Source: Candidatus Giovannonibacteria bacterium
GTDB lineage: Bacteria; Patescibacteriota; Minisyncoccia; UBA11713; 2-01-FULL-45-33
Assembly: GCA_030699445.1 (NCBI GenBank)
Contig: JAUYMO010000023.1
Coordinates: 1-59,861, forward strand
Direction of reading: 5' to 3'
DNA length: 59,861 nt
Shown: positions 1,872-25,263 of the stretch, in pieces
Layout of the letters: the number at the start of each line of letters is the position of its first letter
Position numbering within the stretch: the first letter of the stretch is position 1
Made by a program: the position numbers and the translations under genes
Notes under the pieces: generated by a model
What the model saw: only the letters and a program-made list of their open reading frames with translations
The model's database searches: none
What the model was told of the DNA's origin: nothing

Positions 1872-3902
1872 ATGACCATAGAATATTTTGACCTAGGCAC
1901 GGGACTGTTCTCAAGACGTTTCGCGCTGGATTTGAGAGCGCAGGTGAAAAGAGCGCCCGAGGGTGATGAAAAAATGAAAGAAATCGCCGAGGCCATCCGC
2001 GTTGGGTCAAGCGCGTTTTTGAAAAGGCAATTTAAATCCGTATTTATAGTAGGCGCGCTCGTCGCCCTGCTTTTGTGGTTTTTTCTTGGCAAAAATATCG
2101 CAATCGGTTTTATAATCGGCGCTTTGGCATCTTCGCTCGCAGCTTACTTGGGAATGAAAACGGCTGTGATGGCAAATTCTAGAGTTGCCGAAGGCGCGAA
2201 ATCCGGTTTAAAAAAAGCTTTTTCTCTGGCGTTCAAAGGCGGCGCGGTTACCGGATTTTTAGTTGTGGGTTTGGGCCTTTTGGTTGTCGCCGGATTTTGG
2301 AATTGGATAAATGATTTGGCCGCCTTGGTCGGCGTCGGTTTCGGCGGCTCTTTGATTTCCGTTTTTTCCAGATTGGGCGGAGGAATTTACACCAAAGCGG
2401 CGGATGTCGGCGCGGACTTAGTCGGAAAAACCGAAGCCGAAATTCCGGAGGACGACCCGCGGAACCCCGCGGTGATTGCCGATTTGGTCGGCGACAACGT
2501 GGGAGACTGCGCCGGAATGGCGGCTGACCTTTTTGAGACATACGCCGTGACATTAATCGCCGCGATGCTTTTGGGCGGCGCGGTTTTTGCGGGAGCTGAC
2601 GCCGCGATTTTGCTTCCTTTATTTTTGGGCGGAGCCGCGATTTGGGCTTCTATAATAGGATTCTTTTTTGTTAAGGCGGCGGATGCTTCAAAAATAATGC
2701 TCGGGCTCTATAAAGGTTTAGTGGCAGCGGGAATTCTTTCGGCAATAGGTTTTTATTTCGCGATAAAAGAATTTGTAATCGCTCCGGGAACGGCCGAGAA
2801 CGGATTATTTAAAAACTTGGTAAAAATCCCCGGCAGTTCGTTTGATTATTTTTTGGCGTCTCTCTTGGGACTCATTGTTGTTTTAGGAATTGTTTTAATC
2901 ACGGAATATTACACGTCTAAAAAATTCCGCCCGGTAAAAGACATCGCCAAAAGCTCGCAATCGGGCCACGGCACGAATATAATAATTGGCTTGGCTTATT
3001 CTTTGGAATCAACCGCGCTTCCCGCTTTACTCATCGCTTTTTCCGCCTGGGGCGCGTATTATTTCGCGGGCCTTTACGGCGTGGCGCTTTCCGCGGTTTC
3101 TATGCTTTCCATGACCGGAATAATTGTGGCGATTGATTCGTTCGGCCCGATTACCGACAACGCCGGAGGAATTGCCGAAATGGCGGGCATGCCAAAAAGC
3201 GTCCGCGAAATTACCGATCCATTGGATGCCGTGGGTAACACAACCAAAGCCATCACCAAGGGCTACGCCATTGCTTCGGCGGGGCTCGCCGCGATGGTTT
3301 TATTTTCCGCTTACGCTTCGGAGTTAATTTCAAAAGGCGCCGGCGCGGTTTTCCAGCTTTCGGACCCTTTGGTCATAACCGGTTTATTTATCGGCGGAAT
3401 GCTTCCCTATATTTTCGGATCTCTTGCCATGCGCGCCGTGGGCAGCGCGGCCGGAGCGGTTGTTTTGGAAGTGCGGAGGCAATTTAAAGAATTGCCGGGC
3501 ATCATGGCGGGAACCCAAAAACCAGATTACGCCAAAACAGTGGACATTGTGACCGGCGCGGCTTTGAAAGAAATGATTTTGCCGGCGTTGCTTCCGATTT
3601 TAGTCACAATTTTGGTCGGATTTTTGCTCGGGCCGAAGGCCTTAGGCGGGCTTTTAATCGGCGTGATTCTTACCGGATTTTTTATGGCGATTTCAATGAC
3701 TTCGGGAGGCGCCGCCTGGGACAACGCCAAAAAATTTATTGAAGAAGGAAATTACGGAGGCAAGGGCTCGGAAGCGCACAAAGCCGCCGTCACTGGGGAC
3801 ACAGTCGGCGACCCATACAAAGATACCGCCGGTCCGGCGATAAATCCGATGATAAAAGTGGTCAACATCGTCGCCCTCCTCATAATTCCGTTTATAATTT
3901 AG
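1872..3902 (+). CDS. hppA: membrane-bound proton-translocating pyrophosphatase (H+-PPase)
   Basis: 676-aa polytopic protein with hallmark motifs [35 protein letters not shown] and [18 protein letters not shown]. Confidence 0.95.
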
Positions 3903-13092: not shown

Positions 13093-13764
13093 ATGCCTAG
13101 AGTTAAATTTGGTGAGGGCGAATATTATCATATTTTTAATAGAGGCGTAGACAAGCGCCAAATTTTTTCAAACGACGCTGATAGATGGCGTTTTCTTACG
13201 CTGTTATGTGTTTTGCAGGGAGAAAATTCTTTTCCGCAAATCGGCCGCATAGTGCCTTTTGTCAGAAGTTCAAGTTTTGACAATGAGATGTTCGACGGGA
13301 CTATAAAGACAAAATATGTGGAATTGGTAAGTTTTTGCCTAATGCCAAACCATTTTCATTTGAAAATACGTGAACTTAAAGAAGGTGGCGTCTCTAAATT
13401 TATGCAGCGTTTGCTGGGCGCTTATACCAAATACTTTAATATGCGCCATGGCCGCACAGGGCATTTATTCGGCAGCAGATTCCACGCGGTTCATATAGAC
13501 AGCAATAAATATTTAAATTATCTTTCTGCTTACATTCACTTAAATCCCCGCGAATTAAAAGAGTGGCGCGGCAAAGAAATAAAATATCCATGGTCCAGTT
13601 TTCAGGATTTTACTTTTAAGAATCGTTGGAACGCTTTTTTAAATACCTCAATTATTCTAGATCAGTTTGCCACAAGATCAGAATACAAAAAATTCGTAGA
13701 AGATACCCCCATTAAGGAGTTGCGCGAAAATTTACCGGAAGAATATCAGAAGTTCGAGTTTTGA
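13093..13764 (+). CDS. IS200/RAYT-like HUH Y1 transposase family protein (paralog 1)
   Basis: YHIFNRG, an HUH motif (PNHFHL), and YLSAYIHLNP (catalytic Tyr region), as in COG1943/RayT-type proteins. Confidence 0.75.
   Translation: MPRVKFGEGEYYHIFNRGVDKRQIFSNDADRWRFLTLLCVLQGENSFPQIGRIVPFVRSSSFDNEMFDGTIKTKYVELVSFCLMPNHFHLKIRELKEGGVSKFMQRLLGAYTKYFNMRHGRTGHLFGSRFHAVHIDSNKYLNYLSAYIHLNPRELKEWRGKEIKYPWSSFQDFTFKNRWNAFLNTSIILDQFATRSEYKKFVEDTPIKELRENLPEEYQKFEF
13261..13282 (+). repeat. same hairpin, copy B (inside the ORF, near codon 57)
   Basis: Exact 22-mer repeat of 13041-13062. It is translated as FVRSSSFD. Confidence 0.7.
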
Positions 13765-22302: not shown

Positions 22303-22373
22303 TGGACCCAGGGAGAATCGAACTCCCGCCTGCGCAATGCGAATGCGCCGTTATACCACTTAACTATGGGCCC
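22303..22373 (-). tRNA. tRNA-Ala (anticodon CGC)
   Basis: Acceptor GGGCCCA / TGGGTCC with the G3:U70 pair, anticodon loop TTCGCAT, T-loop TTCGATT. Confidence 0.88.
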
Positions 22374-22386
22374 TTACAAAGTCCTG

Positions 22387-22566
22387 TCGGGGTGTCCCGC
22401 TAAGCGGGATCTTCGCGCACCCTTGCCCCGTTAGAAAATTTACTTTCGGAGAGCCGAGAATCGAACTCGGGCCTTACGCACCCGAAACGTATGTACTACC
22501 ACTATACTACTCTCCGATGATTTTCTAACGGGGCGAACGCGCGTACTGCCGGTATACTACACCCCG
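22387..22566 (-). pseudogene. tRNA-Pro-like gene split in its anticodon loop by an insert that contains tRNA-Pro(CGG)
   Basis: 5' half is CGGGGTG-TA-GTAT-ACCGGCA-GTAC-G-CGCGT-TCG. 3' half is GGGT-GCGCG-AAGA-TCCCGC-TTA-GCGGGA-CACCCCG-A. Acceptor and anticodon stems pair, but the T-loop is only 3 nt. Confidence 0.5.
22446..22516 (-). tRNA. tRNA-Pro (anticodon CGG)
   Basis: Acceptor CGGAGAG / CTCTCCG, anticodon loop TTCGGGT, T-loop TTCGATT. It is flanked by the 14-bp inverted repeat CCCCGTTAGAAAAT / ATTTTCTAACGGGG. Confidence 0.88.
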
Positions 22567-22600
22567 ATTATCCCGACGCTGCGGTCGGGATTCGCTTCAC

Positions 22601-24082
22601 TCATTTAACATAATGCTTCTTTTTTATTTTTAAAACTTCTTCTTCTTCCAACCCTAATTGTTTTTTGCGGCCGGCTTCGGCGAGTTTTTTAAGCTCCGCG
22701 TCGGAAAGTTTGTTTAATTCTAAAACGCGCGTTTCCAGATATTCAGGCGTGTTTTTTTGCGGGTCTTCCAGCACCTCGTCAAAAATGGCGTTAAGCAAAA
22801 AACCTATGCGCATGCCCTGAGGAAGCCCCGCGAGCTCTTTTATTTTGTCGCCGTTTAACTTCATCATCTTAAGAGAAACCGGGTCTCTTTGCAATTTTTC
22901 CACCAAAAAACGGAAATGGCGCAATTTGTAGGGCTCGGCTTTGGGCACGCCCGAACCGATGCGGTCGCAGATGCGCACGCGGATTAAATCTTCCATATCC
23001 TCCGGCCCAACGCGCGAAATTAGGCGCCTGACTGATGATTCCGAAACTTCGTCAACGTTATAATAAAATAAGTGATAGCGCACGAGCTTTGTAACTTTTT
23101 CCGCGAAATCATTTCCGTATTTCAAGCGCGACAAAACTATCGCGGACATTCTGGCGCCGATTACTTCGTGGTTATAAAAAGTGGAATTGGGCCCGTCGCC
23201 CATTTTGGCGCGCGGTTTGCCGATGTCGTGAAATAGCGCGGACATTCTGACAACCAACGGCCATTTTTCTTTTGCCGCGTGGTCTAAAGCGCGCGAATTA
23301 TGCTCCCAGACGGTATAAATATGGTGCTTATTTTGGCCGATGCCGTAGCCCTCTTCAATTTCCGGTAAAAAAAGTTTTAAAATTCCTGCTTCGCGGAGCG
23401 CCTCAAGCCCCTCCGATGGCTTAGCCGACATGATGATTTTAGAAAATTCATCGCGGATGCGCTCCTTTGCTATCATTTTGAGCAAATTCGCCTTATTTTT
23501 CAACGCTTTTTCAGTTTTTGCTTCAATCGCAAATCCCAGCTCCGCGGAAAATCTTACGGCGCGCATTATGCGGAGGGCGTCTTCGGCGAATCTCTCTTCG
23601 GGATCGCCAACCGCGCGGATTATTTTTTTATCAAAATCTTTTTTACATTTGAAAGTATAATTTATTTGGAATTCGGACTTCCTAAGGAAGTCCGACTTCC
23701 TTAAATTCAATGCCATCGCATTTACCGTAAAATCCCTCCGCGCCAAGTCATCTTCCAATTTATCCGCGAATTTTATCTCGTCCGGGTGGCGCTTGTCTGA
23801 ATATTTTCCTTCTAAGCGGTACGGCGTGATTTCTATGGCGCGAAGTTTTGGATCTTCGGAGCCCGTAACAACGCTTACCGTCCCAAATTTATTTTCATAA
23901 AAACTTTTCGGGAAGAGCTCCTGTATTTTTTCCGGGCGGGCATTGGTTGTGATATCCCAATCCTGCGGAATTCTGCCAATTAAAAGATCGCGAACGCATC
24001 CACCGACAAGATACGCTTCAAATCCGGCGCCCTCTAAAATAGCGACAGCCGCTCTTATTTCTTTTGGAATAGTGAAATTCAT
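22601..24082 (-). CDS. cca: CCA-adding tRNA nucleotidyltransferase with HD domain
   Basis: GGCVRDLLIGR, DWDITT, RDFTVNAMA, ED.LRIMRAVRF and an HD domain (LFHDIGKP). It carries a palindromic element at 23674-23704. Confidence 0.9.
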   Translation of the reverse strand: MNFTIPKEIRAAVAILEGAGFEAYLVGGCVRDLLIGRIPQDWDITTNARPEKIQELFPKSFYENKFGTVSVVTGSEDPKLRAIEITPYRLEGKYSDKRHPDEIKFADKLEDDLARRDFTVNAMALNLRKSDFLRKSEFQINYTFKCKKDFDKKIIRAVGDPEERFAEDALRIMRAVRFSAELGFAIEAKTEKALKNKANLLKMIAKERIRDEFSKIIMSAKPSEGLEALREAGILKLFLPEIEEGYGIGQNKHHIYTVWEHNSRALDHAAKEKWPLVVRMSALFHDIGKPRAKMGDGPNSTFYNHEVIGARMSAIVLSRLKYGNDFAEKVTKLVRYHLFYYNVDEVSESSVRRLISRVGPEDMEDLIRVRICDRIGSGVPKAEPYKLRHFRFLVEKLQRDPVSLKMMKLNGDKIKELAGLPQGMRIGFLLNAIFDEVLEDPQKNTPEYLETRVLELNKLSDAELKKLAEAGRKKQLGLEEEEVLKIKKKHYVK

Positions 24083-24591: not shown

Positions 24592-25263
24592 ATGAGATTT
24601 GCTAAAGGCGAGTTTTATCACATTTACAATCGCGGGGTTGAAGGAAGAAATATTTTTATGGAAAGAGCGGATTATTTGCGATTCCTTCGCGGCTTAAAAG
24701 AATTTAACATTAATGGCAATACGAGGTTAGATCGCACAGCCGCTGCTGACGAGATGCGACCTCGTTCTCGTCAGAAACACACAGCATTAACATCAATTCT
24801 TGCCTATGTTTTGATGAAAAATCATATACATTTGTTGTTATATTGTATAAACGAAGAAAAGATGTCGCTTTTTCTGCAAAAAATTTTTGTTGGGCACACA
24901 ATGTACTTTAATACAAAATATCAAAGAACAGGCGTTCTCTTTCAGGGTAGATCAAAGTCTAAACATATTGACGACGATCACTATTTAAAACATCTAATTG
25001 ATTATATCCATTTAAATCCCTTAGATTATTCAATGCCCCAATGGCGAGAACACGGCATTAAAAATAGTTTGAGCACCAAAAACGAAATATTAAATTATCC
25101 ATGGTCAAGCGCAAAAAGCATAATAAATAACAAACCTAATCCGATTTTAAATGGAGAATTGGTCCGAGAGCTATTTCCTCATCCAAAAGAACTTTTAACG
25201 TCAGCGCTAGAATGGTCTTCAGAAAAATTTGAAGACGCAGCCGGCCTTTTAATTGAGCCTTAA
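24592..25263 (+). CDS. IS200/RAYT-like HUH Y1 transposase family protein (paralog 2)
   Basis: YHIYNRG, an HUH motif (KNHIHL) and HLIDYIHLNP. Same 223-aa length as paralog 1 but strongly diverged. Confidence 0.75.
   Translation: MRFAKGEFYHIYNRGVEGRNIFMERADYLRFLRGLKEFNINGNTRLDRTAAADEMRPRSRQKHTALTSILAYVLMKNHIHLLLYCINEEKMSLFLQKIFVGHTMYFNTKYQRTGVLFQGRSKSKHIDDDHYLKHLIDYIHLNPLDYSMPQWREHGIKNSLSTKNEILNYPWSSAKSIINNKPNPILNGELVRELFPHPKELLTSALEWSSEKFEDAAGLLIEP
24748..24765 (+). repeat. same hairpin, copy B' (inside the ORF, near codon 53)
   Basis: Translated as DEMRPRS. It also forms GACGAGA...TCTCGTC. Confidence 0.7.

What the first reader, a model, noticed from the sequence alone, without database searches (positions are those of the whole stretch)
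22387..22566. Intact tRNA-Pro(CGG) nested in the anticodon loop of a second, tRNA-Pro-like gene
Reading the minus strand, 22566-22534 gives a normal tRNA 5' half: acceptor CGGGGTG, D-arm GTAT-ACCGGCA-GTAC and anticodon-stem strand CGCGT. Positions 22422-22387 give the matching 3' half: GCGCG, then a T-arm-like hairpin, then acceptor CACCCCG and a discriminator A.
Between the halves lie a perfect 14-bp inverted repeat (CCCCGTTAGAAAAT at 22533-22520 and ATTTTCTAACGGGG at 22439-22426) and, inside it, the complete 71-nt tRNA-Pro(CGG). Joining the halves around the repeat would give a loop TCG+GGGT. That is close to the TTCGGGT loop of the inner tRNA, or a GGG anticodon with C33. The outer T-loop is only 3 nt (TCCCGC-TTA-GCGGGA), so the outer gene may be dead.
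There are several readings.
- A tRNA gene disrupted by a small inverted-repeat element that brings its own replacement tRNA.
- A very unusual tRNA-containing intron.
- A leader/trailer scaffold for processing.
I know of no described bacterial case of a tRNA within a tRNA.
Basis: partly seen in the sequence, partly recalled or inferred. Interest (0 to 1): 0.65.

Follow-up and report, generated by a model that had tools for sequence, protein, structure and literature searches.

The report
tRNA gene nested inside tRNA gene
A 112-base palindrome-ended DNA cassette carrying its own proline tRNA gene sits in the anticodon loop of the resident proline tRNA gene and has replaced it, and the same kind of tRNA-in-tRNA nest proves common in these small groundwater bacteria.

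Summary
On the minus strand, an intact tRNA-Pro(CGG) (22516-22446) lies between a perfect 14-bp inverted repeat. That repeat lies between the two halves of a second tRNA-Pro gene.

The outer gene is the lineage's ancestral tRNA-Pro(CGG), not GGG. Its first 29 nt are identical to intact genes at the same cca-linked position in relatives. It is dead: nucleotide 31 is missing and the T arm is replaced by a 6-bp/3-nt hairpin.

The case is not unique. All share the arms N-CCCGTTAGA-NNN / NNN-TCTAACGGG-N', a 13-bp helix whose unconstrained positions covary. In 113 of 118 nests the shell accepts the same amino acid as the cargo tRNA. Nests of three to six layers exist.

Copies of the same frame without a tRNA carry 4-bp target-site duplications in 14 of 21 cases, so the frame is a MITE-like mobile DNA.

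Simple excision cannot rebuild the shell's anticodon in most nests, so an intron reading fails.

I found no prior description. The enzyme, and why tRNA-bearing copies lack duplications, remain unknown.

The parts
22601..24082 (-). cca gene (class II CCA-adding tRNA nucleotidyltransferase, 493 aa). This is the conserved upstream neighbour in the cca > tRNA-Pro(CGG) > tRNA-Ala(CGC) order.
   Evidence: NCBIfam TIGR02692 and NF009814 hits. The synteny holds in most of 40 relatives checked.
22571..22590 (-). Hairpin TCCCGAC-CGCAGC-GTCGGGA between the cca stop codon and the shell. It has no T-run.
   Evidence: Read from the sequence. Not called as a terminator.
22538..22566 (-). Shell 5' half, tRNA positions 1-30 of the ancestral resident tRNA-Pro(CGG): acceptor strand, D arm, G26, and four of the five 5' anticodon-stem bases.
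   Evidence: 29/29 identical to intact tRNA-Pro(CGG) of L003 and L074. Direct repeat with the inner 5' half.
22534..22537 (-). Left junction TTCG. This is loop positions 32-35 of the shell, or the family's left 'foot'. Nucleotide 31 is missing before it.
   Evidence: Comparison with L003 (GCGCGC-TTCGGGT-GCGCG). Family junction tables.
22520..22533 (-). Left arm (terminal inverted repeat): C + core CCCGTTAGA + AAAT.
   Evidence: The same core flanks at least 120 other tRNA cassettes. Covariation.
22517..22519 (-). 3-nt leader spacer CAT.
22446..22516 (-). Cargo: intact 71-nt tRNA-Pro(CGG) with no encoded CCA. This is the working gene.
   Evidence: Rfam 62.3 bits. ARAGORN. 94% identical to the tRNA-Pro(CGG) in the cca locus of L005.
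22440..22445 (-). 6-nt trailer spacer AAGTAA.
22426..22439 (-). Right arm: ATTT + core TCTAACGGG + G.
22422..22425 (-). Right 'foot' CAAG. It is part of the inserted DNA and is absent from the uninterrupted ortholog.
   Evidence: (TTCG..CAAG) and (TTCA..CAAG) are the commonest foot pairs in the family.
22387..22421 (-). Shell 3' half: loop 36-38 GGT, stem GCGCG, variable AAGA, degenerate T arm TCCCGC-TTA-GCGGGA (22409-22395), acceptor CACCCCG, discriminator A.
   Evidence: GGTGCGCGAAGA and CACCCCGA match L003, but the 17-nt T arm is replaced by a 15-nt hairpin. ARAGORN rejects the shell even when a 7-nt loop is supplied.
22303..22373 (-). tRNA-Ala(CGC), the next gene in the conserved cluster. 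It is not nested here but is the commonest cargo type elsewhere.

Best explanation
The locus is a resident tRNA-Pro(CGG) gene overwritten by a small mobile DNA cassette.

What was inserted. The cassette (about 22533-22422, 112 bp) consists of two 13-14-bp inverted arms (N-CCCGTTAGA-NNN and its complement), 3-6-nt spacers, and a complete tRNA-Pro(CGG) that is no closer to its shell than to cargos in other loci. It landed between positions 35 and 36 of the resident gene's anticodon loop. This is shown by comparison with uninterrupted orthologs.

How the locus works now (inferred). The cluster is probably transcribed with or just after cca. The arms close a 13-bp helix around the cargo, so the cargo folds on its own despite the homologous shell halves. 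RNase P, a 3' endonuclease or exonuclease, and the CCA-adding enzyme encoded next door then mature the inner tRNA. The shell is a relic. It has lost nucleotide 31 and its T loop.

The frame is mobile DNA. Copies without a tRNA are flanked by 4-5-bp target-site duplications, preferentially TTCA/TGAA, so the frame behaves as a non-autonomous MITE-like element moved by a transposase acting in trans that I could not identify.

Why cargo and shell match (inferred). Either only insertions that complement the gene they destroy survive, or cargo-target homology guides the insertion.

Repeated invasion of the innermost intact tRNA, together with recombination between the homologous layers, would build multi-layer nests and also erode them into half-nests.
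For: - Shell identity. The 5' 29 nt are identical to the intact L003 and L074 genes at the syntenic cca position. The 3' blocks GGTGCGCGAAGA and CACCCCGA match as well.
- Shell decay. ARAGORN will not call the joined halves, nor the halves with a supplied loop. Rfam scores only the inner gene. A near-identical relative in run X3 has 22542-22595 replaced by TGT.
- Recurrence. At cca loci of GTDB genomes they occur in L009, L026 and L043.
- Helix. It is exactly 13 bp. The -1:+1 pair is Watson-Crick in 99% of copies, with three pair types. Arm position 10 is Watson-Crick in 96%, with four pair types, against 38% in shuffles. There is no pairing beyond that.
- Shell matches cargo type. The best foreign match to the shell is the same amino acid in 113 of 118 shells.
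- Cargo is not a local copy. The shell is 74-75% identical to its own cargo and equally so to cargos from other loci.
- Cassettes in unrelated contexts. Cassettes 90-97% identical, spacers included, sit in shells only 45-75% identical, in loci whose 2-kb flanks share no tblastx hit. Identity falls away around the arms and feet.
- Mobility. 14 of 21 cargo-less frames have identical 4-nt direct repeats, against 0.08 expected. The Met nest L083 also has one (CTCA).
- Decay spectrum. 37 of 117 shells are no longer cloverleaf-competent. Some carry other palindromic inserts.
- Layering. Multi-layer nests and half-nests exist.
Against: - No transposase or recombinase was found in or beside the nests. 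ORF clustering over 120 loci gave only housekeeping families.
- The two IS200-like Y1 genes in the window have homologs in only one other locus, and the arm motif does not flank them.
- tRNA-bearing copies almost never show the 4-bp duplication. They have hetero feet instead (TTCA..CAAG or its reverse complement CTTG..TGAA), and 2-5 loop nucleotides are lost. I cannot derive this from ordinary cut-and-paste transposition.
- Higher conservation of the cassette than of the shell is also expected under vertical descent, because the cargo is under selection and the shell is not.
- About two thirds of shells are still cloverleaf-competent. This could mean recent insertion or some retained role.
- There are no RNA data. 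The core's invariance is imposed by my search pattern, and the pattern required a T loop, so the share of tRNA cargo is biased upward.
Confidence: 0.7

Rival explanations
1. RNA-level intron or split tRNA. The outer gene would be a functional tRNA-Pro whose intron happens to contain another tRNA. Processing of the inner tRNA would leave two halves held together by the 13-bp helix, and these would be trimmed and ligated into a second tRNA.
For: - The insertion lies in the anticodon loop, and a 13-14-bp helix next to it recalls the complementary leaders of archaeal split tRNAs.
- 80 of 117 shells are still cloverleaf-competent if a loop is supplied.
- In one junction class, removing [N core..core N' + 4 nt] restores the right anticodon in 13 of 38 shells.
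- For this window the same cut would give the loop TTCGGGT.
Against: - No excision within 12 nt of either arm gives a same-amino-acid tRNA in 66 of 117 shells, and no single rule works across the family.
- There is no bulge-helix-bulge. The junction feet occur in both orientations (TTCA..CAAG and CTTG..TGAA), which is DNA-strand symmetry and not an RNA motif.
- Many restored loops would lack U33.
- This window's shell lacks nucleotide 31 and a T loop.
- A third of shells are degraded or carry further insertions.
Confidence: 0.05
2. Host-selected processing scaffold. The helix, and perhaps the shell, would be kept because they help fold, process or stabilise the inner pre-tRNA, for example as an RNase III-type stem or a clamp that prevents mispairing. 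On this view they are not the ends of a mobile element.
For: - The helix has a fixed length of 13 bp, with compensatory changes at four positions.
- Leaders and trailers are very short (2-14 and 5-9 nt) in almost all nests.
- No terminator or promoter is predicted between cca and the nest.
Against: - Most tRNAs in the same genomes lack the frame. Seven of eight tRNAs in this window, and most cca-linked tRNA-Pro genes, have none.
- The same frame occurs around non-tRNA interiors of 9-115 nt, with target-site duplications, in intergenic DNA.
- A 9-bp core that stayed at or near the search sequence in cargo-less copies collected with one mismatch per core allowed points to protein recognition and not just pairing.
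- This rival is compatible with the best explanation as a secondary role.
Confidence: 0.1
3. Local rearrangement without a mobile element. A palindrome-driven or slippage duplication of the resident tRNA gene would have produced the nested copy in place.
For: - Inner and outer genes are co-oriented homologs.
- In some loci one half of the shell is nearly identical to the cargo. Examples are the L009 3' half, with one difference, and layers 3 and 6 of L086.
- Some multi-layer arrays contain duplicated blocks.
Against: - On average the shell is no closer to its own cargo than to cargos in other loci.
- Here the inner gene is 72-74% identical to the shell but 94% identical to L005's gene.
- The same arm sequence bounds cargos of 14 anticodon types in unrelated contexts.
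Confidence: 0.05
4. Classical integrase-mediated integration at a tRNA attB. A tiny integrative element carrying a tRNA part would leave displaced tRNA fragments as att repeats.
For: - The anticodon loop is a classic crossover site for tyrosine integrases (from memory; compare PMC3293823 for archaeal tRNA fragments left by an integrating element).
- Half-nests (tRNA + right arm + 3' half) resemble attL/attR remnants.
- A Xer-type recombinase lies 3 kb away.
Against: - Integration gives direct repeats of one tRNA part, not a complete gene flanked by both halves and by inverted arms.
- No overlap sequence is repeated at the two junctions.
- The Xer gene is a syntenic housekeeping gene that is also present in nest-free relatives.
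- There is no integrase in 120 loci.
Confidence: 0.05

Closest known systems
Bacterial MITEs and other non-autonomous palindromic elements (Correia, RUP, ERIC and IS-derived MITEs)
   Same: About 40-140 bp with no ORF. Terminal inverted repeats of about 13 bp. 4-5-bp target-site duplications around cargo-less copies. Several copies per contig. Able to fold as a hairpin.
   Different: Many copies carry a complete, working tRNA gene. Those copies are found only inside the anticodon region of a tRNA gene for the same amino acid, and they lack the duplication. No parent insertion sequence with these ends was found.
Integrative elements and plasmids that target tRNA genes and carry a replacement tRNA segment (for example pNOB8/SSV-type; Caldiarchaeum tRNA-Thr locus, PMC3293823)
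   Same: A mobile DNA enters a tRNA gene, often at the anticodon loop. It avoids killing the host by supplying tRNA sequence and leaves tRNA fragments behind.
   Different: Those elements are kilobases long and encode an integrase. They restore the gene by a partial direct duplication. Here a 110-bp ORF-less cassette supplies a whole independent tRNA between inverted arms, and both halves of the old gene remain around it.
Archaeal intron-containing, split and permuted tRNA genes (BHB-dependent; PMC4390854, PMC4090602)
   Same: The gene is interrupted at or near the anticodon loop, with a helix formed by sequences flanking the interruption. It bears on the question of how tRNA genes become disrupted.
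   Different: There is no bulge-helix-bulge and no consistent splice rule. The host is a bacterium. The interrupted gene is not rebuilt but replaced by the insert's own tRNA.
Group I introns in bacterial tRNA anticodon loops, and homing introns or inteins in general
   Same: A selfish insertion into an essential, conserved gene that neutralises its own damage. It can spread between related genomes through the conserved target.
   Different: There is no ribozyme (the interior is 71-nt tRNA plus spacers) and no homing endonuclease. The damage is neutralised by bringing a substitute gene and not by splicing.
REP/REPIN-RAYT and IS200/IS605 hairpin elements
   Same: Palindromic hairpin DNA. Y1 (IS200-like) transposase homologs are present in the window at 24592-25263 and 13102-13683.
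   Different: IS200/IS605 and REPINs make no target duplication. The arm motif is not near the Y1 genes and is not repeated in the window. The Y1 homologs are absent from almost all nest loci.

Membership tests
Bacterial elongator tRNA (inner gene) | Cloverleaf with 7-nt anticodon loop, U33, T-loop GTTCGAT, and a score above the Rfam RF00005 gathering threshold | tested here: met
   62.3 bits against a threshold of 29. ARAGORN calls tRNA-Pro(cgg).
Bacterial elongator tRNA (outer gene, halves joined) | A recognisable cloverleaf once the insert is removed | tested here: not met
   ARAGORN makes no call at any threshold on the joined halves, with intron mode, or with a supplied 7-nt loop. The T loop is 3 nt and nucleotide 31 is missing.
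Bacterial elongator tRNA (outer gene, halves joined) | Descent from a real tRNA gene | tested here: met
   29/29 identity with L003 and L074 in the 5' part, and matching 3' blocks.
BHB-type (archaeal or eukaryal) tRNA intron or split tRNA | Bulge-helix-bulge: two 3-nt bulges on opposite strands separated by a 4-bp helix at the exon-intron borders | tested here: not met
   The 13-bp helix abuts unpaired feet of two mirror-image kinds. No second bulge is present.
BHB-type (archaeal or eukaryal) tRNA intron or split tRNA | One excision rule that restores a 7-nt anticodon loop | tested here: not met
   The best rules work in 13 of 38 and 11 of 78 shells. 66 of 117 shells have no solution for the same amino acid.
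BHB-type (archaeal or eukaryal) tRNA intron or split tRNA | A splicing endonuclease and ligase in the genome, and a spliced RNA product | not testable with these tools
   Only a 60-kb window is available, and there are no usable RNA runs.
Group I intron in tRNA | Ribozyme core (P3-P9, more than 200 nt) and an Rfam Intron_gpI match | tested here: not met
   The insert is 112 nt, of which 71 are tRNA. There was no Rfam hit at E up to 10.
MITE / non-autonomous DNA transposon | Terminal inverted repeats | tested here: met
   13-14-bp arms.
MITE / non-autonomous DNA transposon | Target-site duplication | tested here: inconclusive
   Met in 14 of 21 cargo-less frames and in the Met nest L083. Not met in this window's copy (TTCG versus CAAG) or in about 100 other tRNA-bearing copies.
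MITE / non-autonomous DNA transposon | Small, no ORF, multiple copies per genome | tested here: met
   40-140 bp. Two or more copies occur on single contigs, for example L150, L106, L136, L138 and Ga0208375_1000003. There is only one copy in this 60-kb window.
MITE / non-autonomous DNA transposon | An autonomous partner with the same ends encoding a transposase | tested here: not met
   No arm pair at 250-6000 bp with a duplication encloses a transposase. The L106 pair encloses NusG, L11, L1 and other housekeeping genes. The search covered only 1.26 Mb.
Integrase-type integrative element at tRNA attB | Direct repeat of a tRNA part at both ends, and an integrase gene | tested here: not met
   The arms are inverted, no junction overlap is repeated, and there is no integrase in the loci.
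IS200/IS605 or REPIN-RAYT | Association with a Y1 HUH transposase, no target duplication, and the motif repeated near the gene | tested here: not met
   Y1 homologs are in the window, but the motif is not near them and not repeated. Cargo-less frames do have duplications.

The most novel reading that the evidence does not exclude
These are a previously undescribed class of bacterial selfish element: 'cuckoo' tRNA cassettes that specifically overwrite the host's tRNA gene for the same amino acid. On this reading they enter by a structure-guided or homology-guided route distinct from ordinary transposition. Its marks are the absence of a target duplication, replacement of a CA/TG/CG dinucleotide in the anticodon loop, and mirror-image feet. 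Repeated invasion would build matryoshka nests. If so, they offer a living model of how tRNA genes become disrupted and how tRNA genes are exchanged horizontally in Patescibacteria.
Probability: 0.45. Interest if true: 0.9.

Novelty: new variant of a known kind. Interest (0 to 1): 0.8.

Why it matters
If the account is right, four things follow.

- **A new way for mobile DNA to occupy an essential gene.** Instead of splicing out, as introns and inteins do, or rebuilding the gene by partial duplication, as integrative elements do, the element carries a complete substitute.
- **Horizontal tRNA replacement.** tRNA genes in candidate-phyla-radiation bacteria would be replaced horizontally and often. 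That affects tRNA-based phylogeny, tRNA gene counts and annotation. The shells are invisible to tRNA finders, and a nest can be misread as an intron-containing gene.
- **A test case for an old question.** Whether disrupted tRNA genes (intron-containing, split or fragmented) arise from mobile-element insertion can be examined here, with many independent events at different stages of decay.
- **A possible tool.** The 13-bp arm, CCCGTTAGA plus covarying bases, presumably marks the site of an unknown DNA-binding transposase or recombinase. If its target is the anticodon stem-loop, it could be developed into a tool.

Tried and rejected
- **ARAGORN on the outer gene.** Intron mode and lowered thresholds made no call on the locus or on the joined halves.
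- **Rfam at E up to 10 on 22380-22600.** Only the inner tRNA scored. The weak hits (SpF41, MIR1883) are the tRNA and the hairpin.
- **Exact-protein look-up of CCA.** The protein is not on record.
- **RNA evidence.** The two runs returned for 'rna' are of unknown kind and hold only contigs. One is a near-identical nest. The other holds the identical inner tRNA without recognisable arms.
- **Viral contigs.** The family pattern gave no match in IMG/VR, so there is no sign of a phage vector.
- **An enzyme encoded in cis.** ORF clustering over 120 loci gave CCA, YraN/UPF0102, ValRS, a NYN-domain protein and the like, but no transposase.
- **The Y1 and XerD genes near the nest.** XerD is syntenic in nest-free relatives. 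The Y1 homologs recur in one other locus only.
- **A composite or autonomous element bounded by the arms.** The only candidate, in L106, encloses housekeeping genes.
- **Integron attC analogy** (GTTRRRY/RYYYAAC). I rejected it because the arm order is reversed relative to attC.
- **Orientation classes of the frame relative to the cargo.** I dropped this idea. The spacer next to the cargo's 5' end (CATAGG...) occurs with either kind of foot, so the feet are not rigidly tied to the interior.
- **Deriving the hetero feet from a 4-bp or 2-bp duplication model.** Only partly successful. It is recorded as unexplained (note).
- **Literature.** Seven full-text searches, including the arm sequence itself, found nothing on nested bacterial tRNA genes.
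Full report
**1. The observation**

Read on the minus strand, the interval runs in this order:
- the cca stop codon (22603-22601) and a hairpin (22590-22571);
- a tRNA 5' half: CGGGGTG-TA-GTAT-ACCGGCA-GTAC-G-CGCG, 22566-22538;
- TTCG (22537-22534);
- a 14-nt arm CCCCGTTAGAAAAT (22533-22520) and the spacer CAT;
- a complete tRNA-Pro(CGG) (22516-22446) and the spacer AAGTAA;
- the complementary arm ATTTTCTAACGGGG (22439-22426) and CAAG;
- a tRNA 3' half: GGT-GCGCG-AAGA-TCCCGC/TTA/GCGGGA-CACCCCG-A, 22421-22387;
- tRNA-Ala(CGC), 13 nt further on.

ARAGORN and Rfam both call the inner gene, at 62.3 bits. The repeat finder reports the inverted repeat as 24 nt at 83% complementarity, and the direct repeat between the outer and inner 5' halves as 36 nt at 75%. 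Contigs from two independent public runs span the whole structure with no differences. The description is accurate and is not an artefact.

**2. What the outer halves are**

tRNA finders do not see the outer gene. ARAGORN fails with intron mode, on the joined halves, and with a supplied loop. Rfam scores only the inner gene.

The window is from a groundwater Paceibacterota (Parcubacteria, Giovannonibacteria-like) bacterium. Its CCA enzyme is up to 81% identical to proteins of such MAGs. The order cca > tRNA-Pro(CGG) > tRNA-Ala(CGC) holds across most of the relatives I checked, usually with the tRNA a few bases after cca.

The uninterrupted tRNA-Pro(CGG) genes of L003 and L074 are identical to the shell over its first 29 nt. 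L003 also matches GGTGCGCGAAGA and CACCCCGA on the 3' side. The shell is therefore the lineage's own tRNA-Pro(CGG). Compared with GCGCGC-TTCG|GGT-GCGCG, the window has lost C31. It has gained 112 nt (C + arm ... arm + G + CAAG) between G35 and G36. Its 17-nt T arm is replaced by a 15-nt hairpin with a 3-nt loop.

The inner gene is only 72-74% identical to the shell but 94% identical to the tRNA-Pro(CGG) of L005.

**3. It is one member of a large family**

At other cca loci the same architecture recurs with the same arm core.
- L009 and L026 have nests around tRNA-Pro(CGG).
- L043 has one around tRNA-Ala(CGC).
- Half-nests occur in L026 (Ala), L067 and L072.

I scanned JGI metagenome contigs with the pattern CCCGTTAGA-N50-70-GTTCRANTC-N18-48-TCTAACNGG.

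Together with the earlier loci and the window this gives 125 pattern matches. In 121 of them the interior is an ARAGORN-called tRNA:

| Cargo | Count |
|---|---|
| Ala-CGC | 35 |
| Pro-CGG | 21 |
| Val-CAC | 15 |
| Pro-TGG | 12 |
| Val-TAC | 11 |
| Gly-CCC | 6 |
| Thr-TGT | 5 |
| Thr-CGT | 5 |
| Val-GAC | 4 |
| Arg-TCT | 2 |
| Leu-CAG | 2 |
| Met-CAT | 1 |
| Leu-CAA | 1 |
| Ala-TGC | 1 |

The flanks are the two halves of another tRNA, almost always split in the anticodon loop. As a check independent of the anticodon, I compared each shell with cargo tRNAs from other loci. The best match is for the same amino acid in 113 of 118 shells.

**4. Anatomy of the frame**

Over 111 distinct copies the helix is exactly 13 bp.
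- The pair just outside the core is Watson-Crick in 99% of copies (C:G 89, T:A 18, G:C 3; shuffles give 68%).
- The nine core pairs were fixed by my pattern.
- The next three pairs are Watson-Crick in 96%, 89% and 86% of copies. The first of these has four pair types (shuffles give 38%).
- Positions further in, and the four bases further out (the 'feet'), do not pair.

So pairing is under selection over a defined length. The core stayed at or near the search sequence in further copies collected with one mismatch per core allowed. That suggests sequence-specific recognition.

**5. DNA element or RNA signal**

*Mirror-image feet.* The feet come in two forms, TTCA..CAAG (29 copies) and its exact reverse complement CTTG..TGAA (10 copies), plus transition variants. 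The window's pair is TTCG..CAAG. The spacer next to the cargo's 5' end can be the same with either form, for example CATAGG... in L177 and L122. This symmetry belongs to double-stranded DNA and not to an RNA motif.

*Cargo-less frames with duplications.* The same frame exists without any tRNA, with interiors of 9-115 nt, in intergenic DNA. These sites include the NusG-L11-L1 region and the surroundings of a 16S rRNA gene. In 14 of 21 such copies the four bases outside [N core..core N'] are an exact direct repeat, against 0.08 expected. The repeats are TTCA x5, TTTA x2, TGAA x2, TCAA, CAAG, CATA, CGTG, TGGA and CTGA. The fifth base often matches too. That is the signature of transposition with a 4-5-bp target duplication. 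One tRNA nest, Met in L083, has it as well: CTCA, which is loop positions 32-35.

*No working excision rule.* I removed every possible segment within 12 nt of either arm. This regenerates a tRNA for the same amino acid in only 51 of 117 shells, and the same anticodon in 36. No single rule works: the best give 13 of 38 and 11 of 78. In most nests 2-5 loop nucleotides, including part of the anticodon, are simply missing. There is no bulge-helix-bulge. The intron reading therefore fails for the family. It fails for this locus in particular, because the shell is defective elsewhere too.

**6. The cargo comes from elsewhere and the shell decays**

- Shells are on average 74-75% identical to their own cargo and 74-75% identical to same-anticodon cargos of other loci. 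Some other locus's cargo often matches a shell at 90-100%.
- Cassettes that are 90-97% identical, spacers included, sit inside shells that are 45-75% identical. The loci's 2-kb flanks share no tblastx hit. Examples are L043/L199, L145/L199, L105/L167, L091/L153 and L126/L141. Identity falls away around the arms and feet.
- When a 7-nt loop is supplied, 80 of 117 shells are still called as tRNAs and 37, including this one, are not.
- Some shells carry another palindromic insert (CCTGCCTGCCGGCAGGCAGG) in the D or T loop.
- A near-identical relative of the window in run X3 has replaced the shell's acceptor and D arm with TGT.

One caveat applies. A selected cargo will always look better conserved than a neutral shell, so the identity contrast alone does not prove transfer. 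The unrelated flanks and the lack of excess similarity between a shell and its own cargo are the stronger points.

**7. Nests within nests**

- L086 has five successive 5' half-shells, each followed by a left arm, then the intact tRNA-Ala, then two right-arm + 3' half units. Two blocks are near-duplicates, so unequal recombination contributes.
- L026 has three layers at tRNA-Pro, and L098, L113, L132 and L181 have three at tRNA-Val.
- Half-nests (tRNA + right arm + 3' half) are what recombination between a shell half and the homologous cargo half would leave.

This fits a cycle of invasion of the innermost intact gene followed by erosion through recombination between the homologous layers. The patchy distribution at cca loci fits the same cycle: among the 80 GTDB loci and the window, only three tRNA-Pro genes sit between the CCCGTTAGA arms.

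**8. Mechanism: shown and inferred**

*Shown:*
- the resident gene is interrupted at 35|36 by a palindrome-ended cassette with a complete isoaccepting tRNA;
- the frame family transposes as DNA;
- shell and cargo match by amino acid;
- cargos are not local copies.

*Inferred:*
- The cluster is read through from cca. No promoter-like or terminator-like site was predicted between them.
- The 13-bp helix insulates folding of the cargo from its homologous shell.
- RNase P, a 3' nuclease and the neighbouring CCA enzyme mature the cargo, which has no encoded CCA. The ancestral-type genes L003 and L074 encode CCA.
- The match between cargo and target arises either from selection or from homology-guided entry. 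Under selection, an insertion that kills a tRNA survives only if it carries the same one. The preferred target TTCA/TTTA/CTCA is positions 32-35 of many loops.

*Not resolved:*
- the enzyme;
- why tRNA-bearing copies have hetero feet and lose a CA/TG/CG dinucleotide instead of showing a 4-bp duplication (note).

Nothing in 1.26 Mb of held loci encodes a candidate bounded by the arms. The window's two IS200-like Y1 genes and its XerD gene show no association with the nests. No copy was found in viral contigs.

**9. Comparison with known systems and novelty**

The frame behaves like a MITE. The strategy resembles integrative elements that target tRNA genes and bring replacement sequence; the archaeal example is in PMC3293823. 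The result superficially resembles an intron-containing or split tRNA gene.

It differs from all of these. It is ORF-less and about 110 bp long. It carries a whole tRNA between inverted arms. It lodges inside a tRNA gene for the same amino acid. It forms multi-layer nests.

Seven full-text searches, including the arm sequence, found no description. That library is incomplete, so prior work cannot be excluded. I rate it a new variant of a known kind (a mobile element that targets tRNA genes). There is a substantial chance that the entry mechanism is new.

**10. Limits**

- The family pattern fixed the core and required a T loop. Core invariance and the dominance of tRNA cargo are therefore partly by design.
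- The metagenome loci have no taxonomy.
- ARAGORN calls serve as a proxy for tRNA competence.
- There are no RNA data.
- The junction grammar is described but not explained.

Noticed in passing
window 24592-25263 (+) and 13102-13683 (+): Two IS200-like Y1 (RAYT-like) transposase homologs lie in one 60-kb window. They are 35% identical to each other. By Pfam Y1_Tnp one scores below and one above the family threshold. Neither is flanked by the arm motif.
   Followed up: partly
L017 4440-4720 and L024 4440-4700: A second kind of nest with different arms (GGTTGAGTACTT.. / ..AAGTGTTCAAC in L017). tRNA-Pro(CGG) sits inside a tRNA-Pro(TGG)-like shell whose 5' half keeps a full loop TTTGGGG, with the 3' half about 100 nt downstream. 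This suggests further frame families beyond CCCGTTAGA.
   Followed up: partly
L086 3450-4100 (reverse strand): A six-layer array: five tRNA-Ala 5' half-shells, each followed by a left arm, then the intact tRNA-Ala(CGC), then only two right-arm + 3' half units. Two blocks are near-duplicates.
   Followed up: partly
L184, L199 (3' shells) and L142 (5' shell): Another short GC-rich palindrome, CCTGCCTGCCGGCAGGCAGG, is inserted in the T loop or D loop of dead shells. It is probably an unrelated MITE that is tolerated there.
   Followed up: no
L136 918-1593 and 4866-4895, around the 16S rRNA gene at 2293-3873 (-): Several cargo-less frames cluster on both sides of a 16S rRNA gene. One has a TTCA duplication and one has hetero feet TTTA..CAAG, like the tRNA nests.
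   Followed up: partly
L150 2086-2204 and 14436-14554; L106 2357-2474 and 6785-6904: Two copies of the same cargo-less frame, with interiors of about 100 nt of unknown content and no Rfam hit, lie on one contig. The content of these 80-115-nt interiors is unexplained.
   Followed up: partly
window 22571-22590 and 22395-22409 (-): The hairpin after cca (TCCCGAC..GTCGGGA) and the hairpin that replaces the shell's T arm (TCCCGC-TTA-GCGGGA) share TCCCG...CGGGA ends. Neither is followed by a T-run.
   Followed up: no
run X21 contig laid on window 22446-22523: A public run holds a 78-nt stretch identical to the inner tRNA plus its leader (AAAATCAT) but with different flanks. Upstream it reads GCTAGAAAATCAT, against GTTAGAAAATCAT in the window, and it has no right arm. 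This may be a decayed frame or a source copy.
   Followed up: partly
L003 5405-5478, L074 2196-2269 versus window 22446-22516: The ancestral-type tRNA-Pro(CGG) genes of relatives encode the 3' CCA. The invading cargo here does not, and in the shell the corresponding bases read ACAG.
   Followed up: no
L090 7140-7256 and L140 2065-2166: In two nests the frame is not in the anticodon loop. In L090 (Leu-CAA) it follows the D arm and the shell lacks its anticodon arm. In L140 (Val-GAC) it lies in the D loop and the 3' shell is gone.
   Followed up: no
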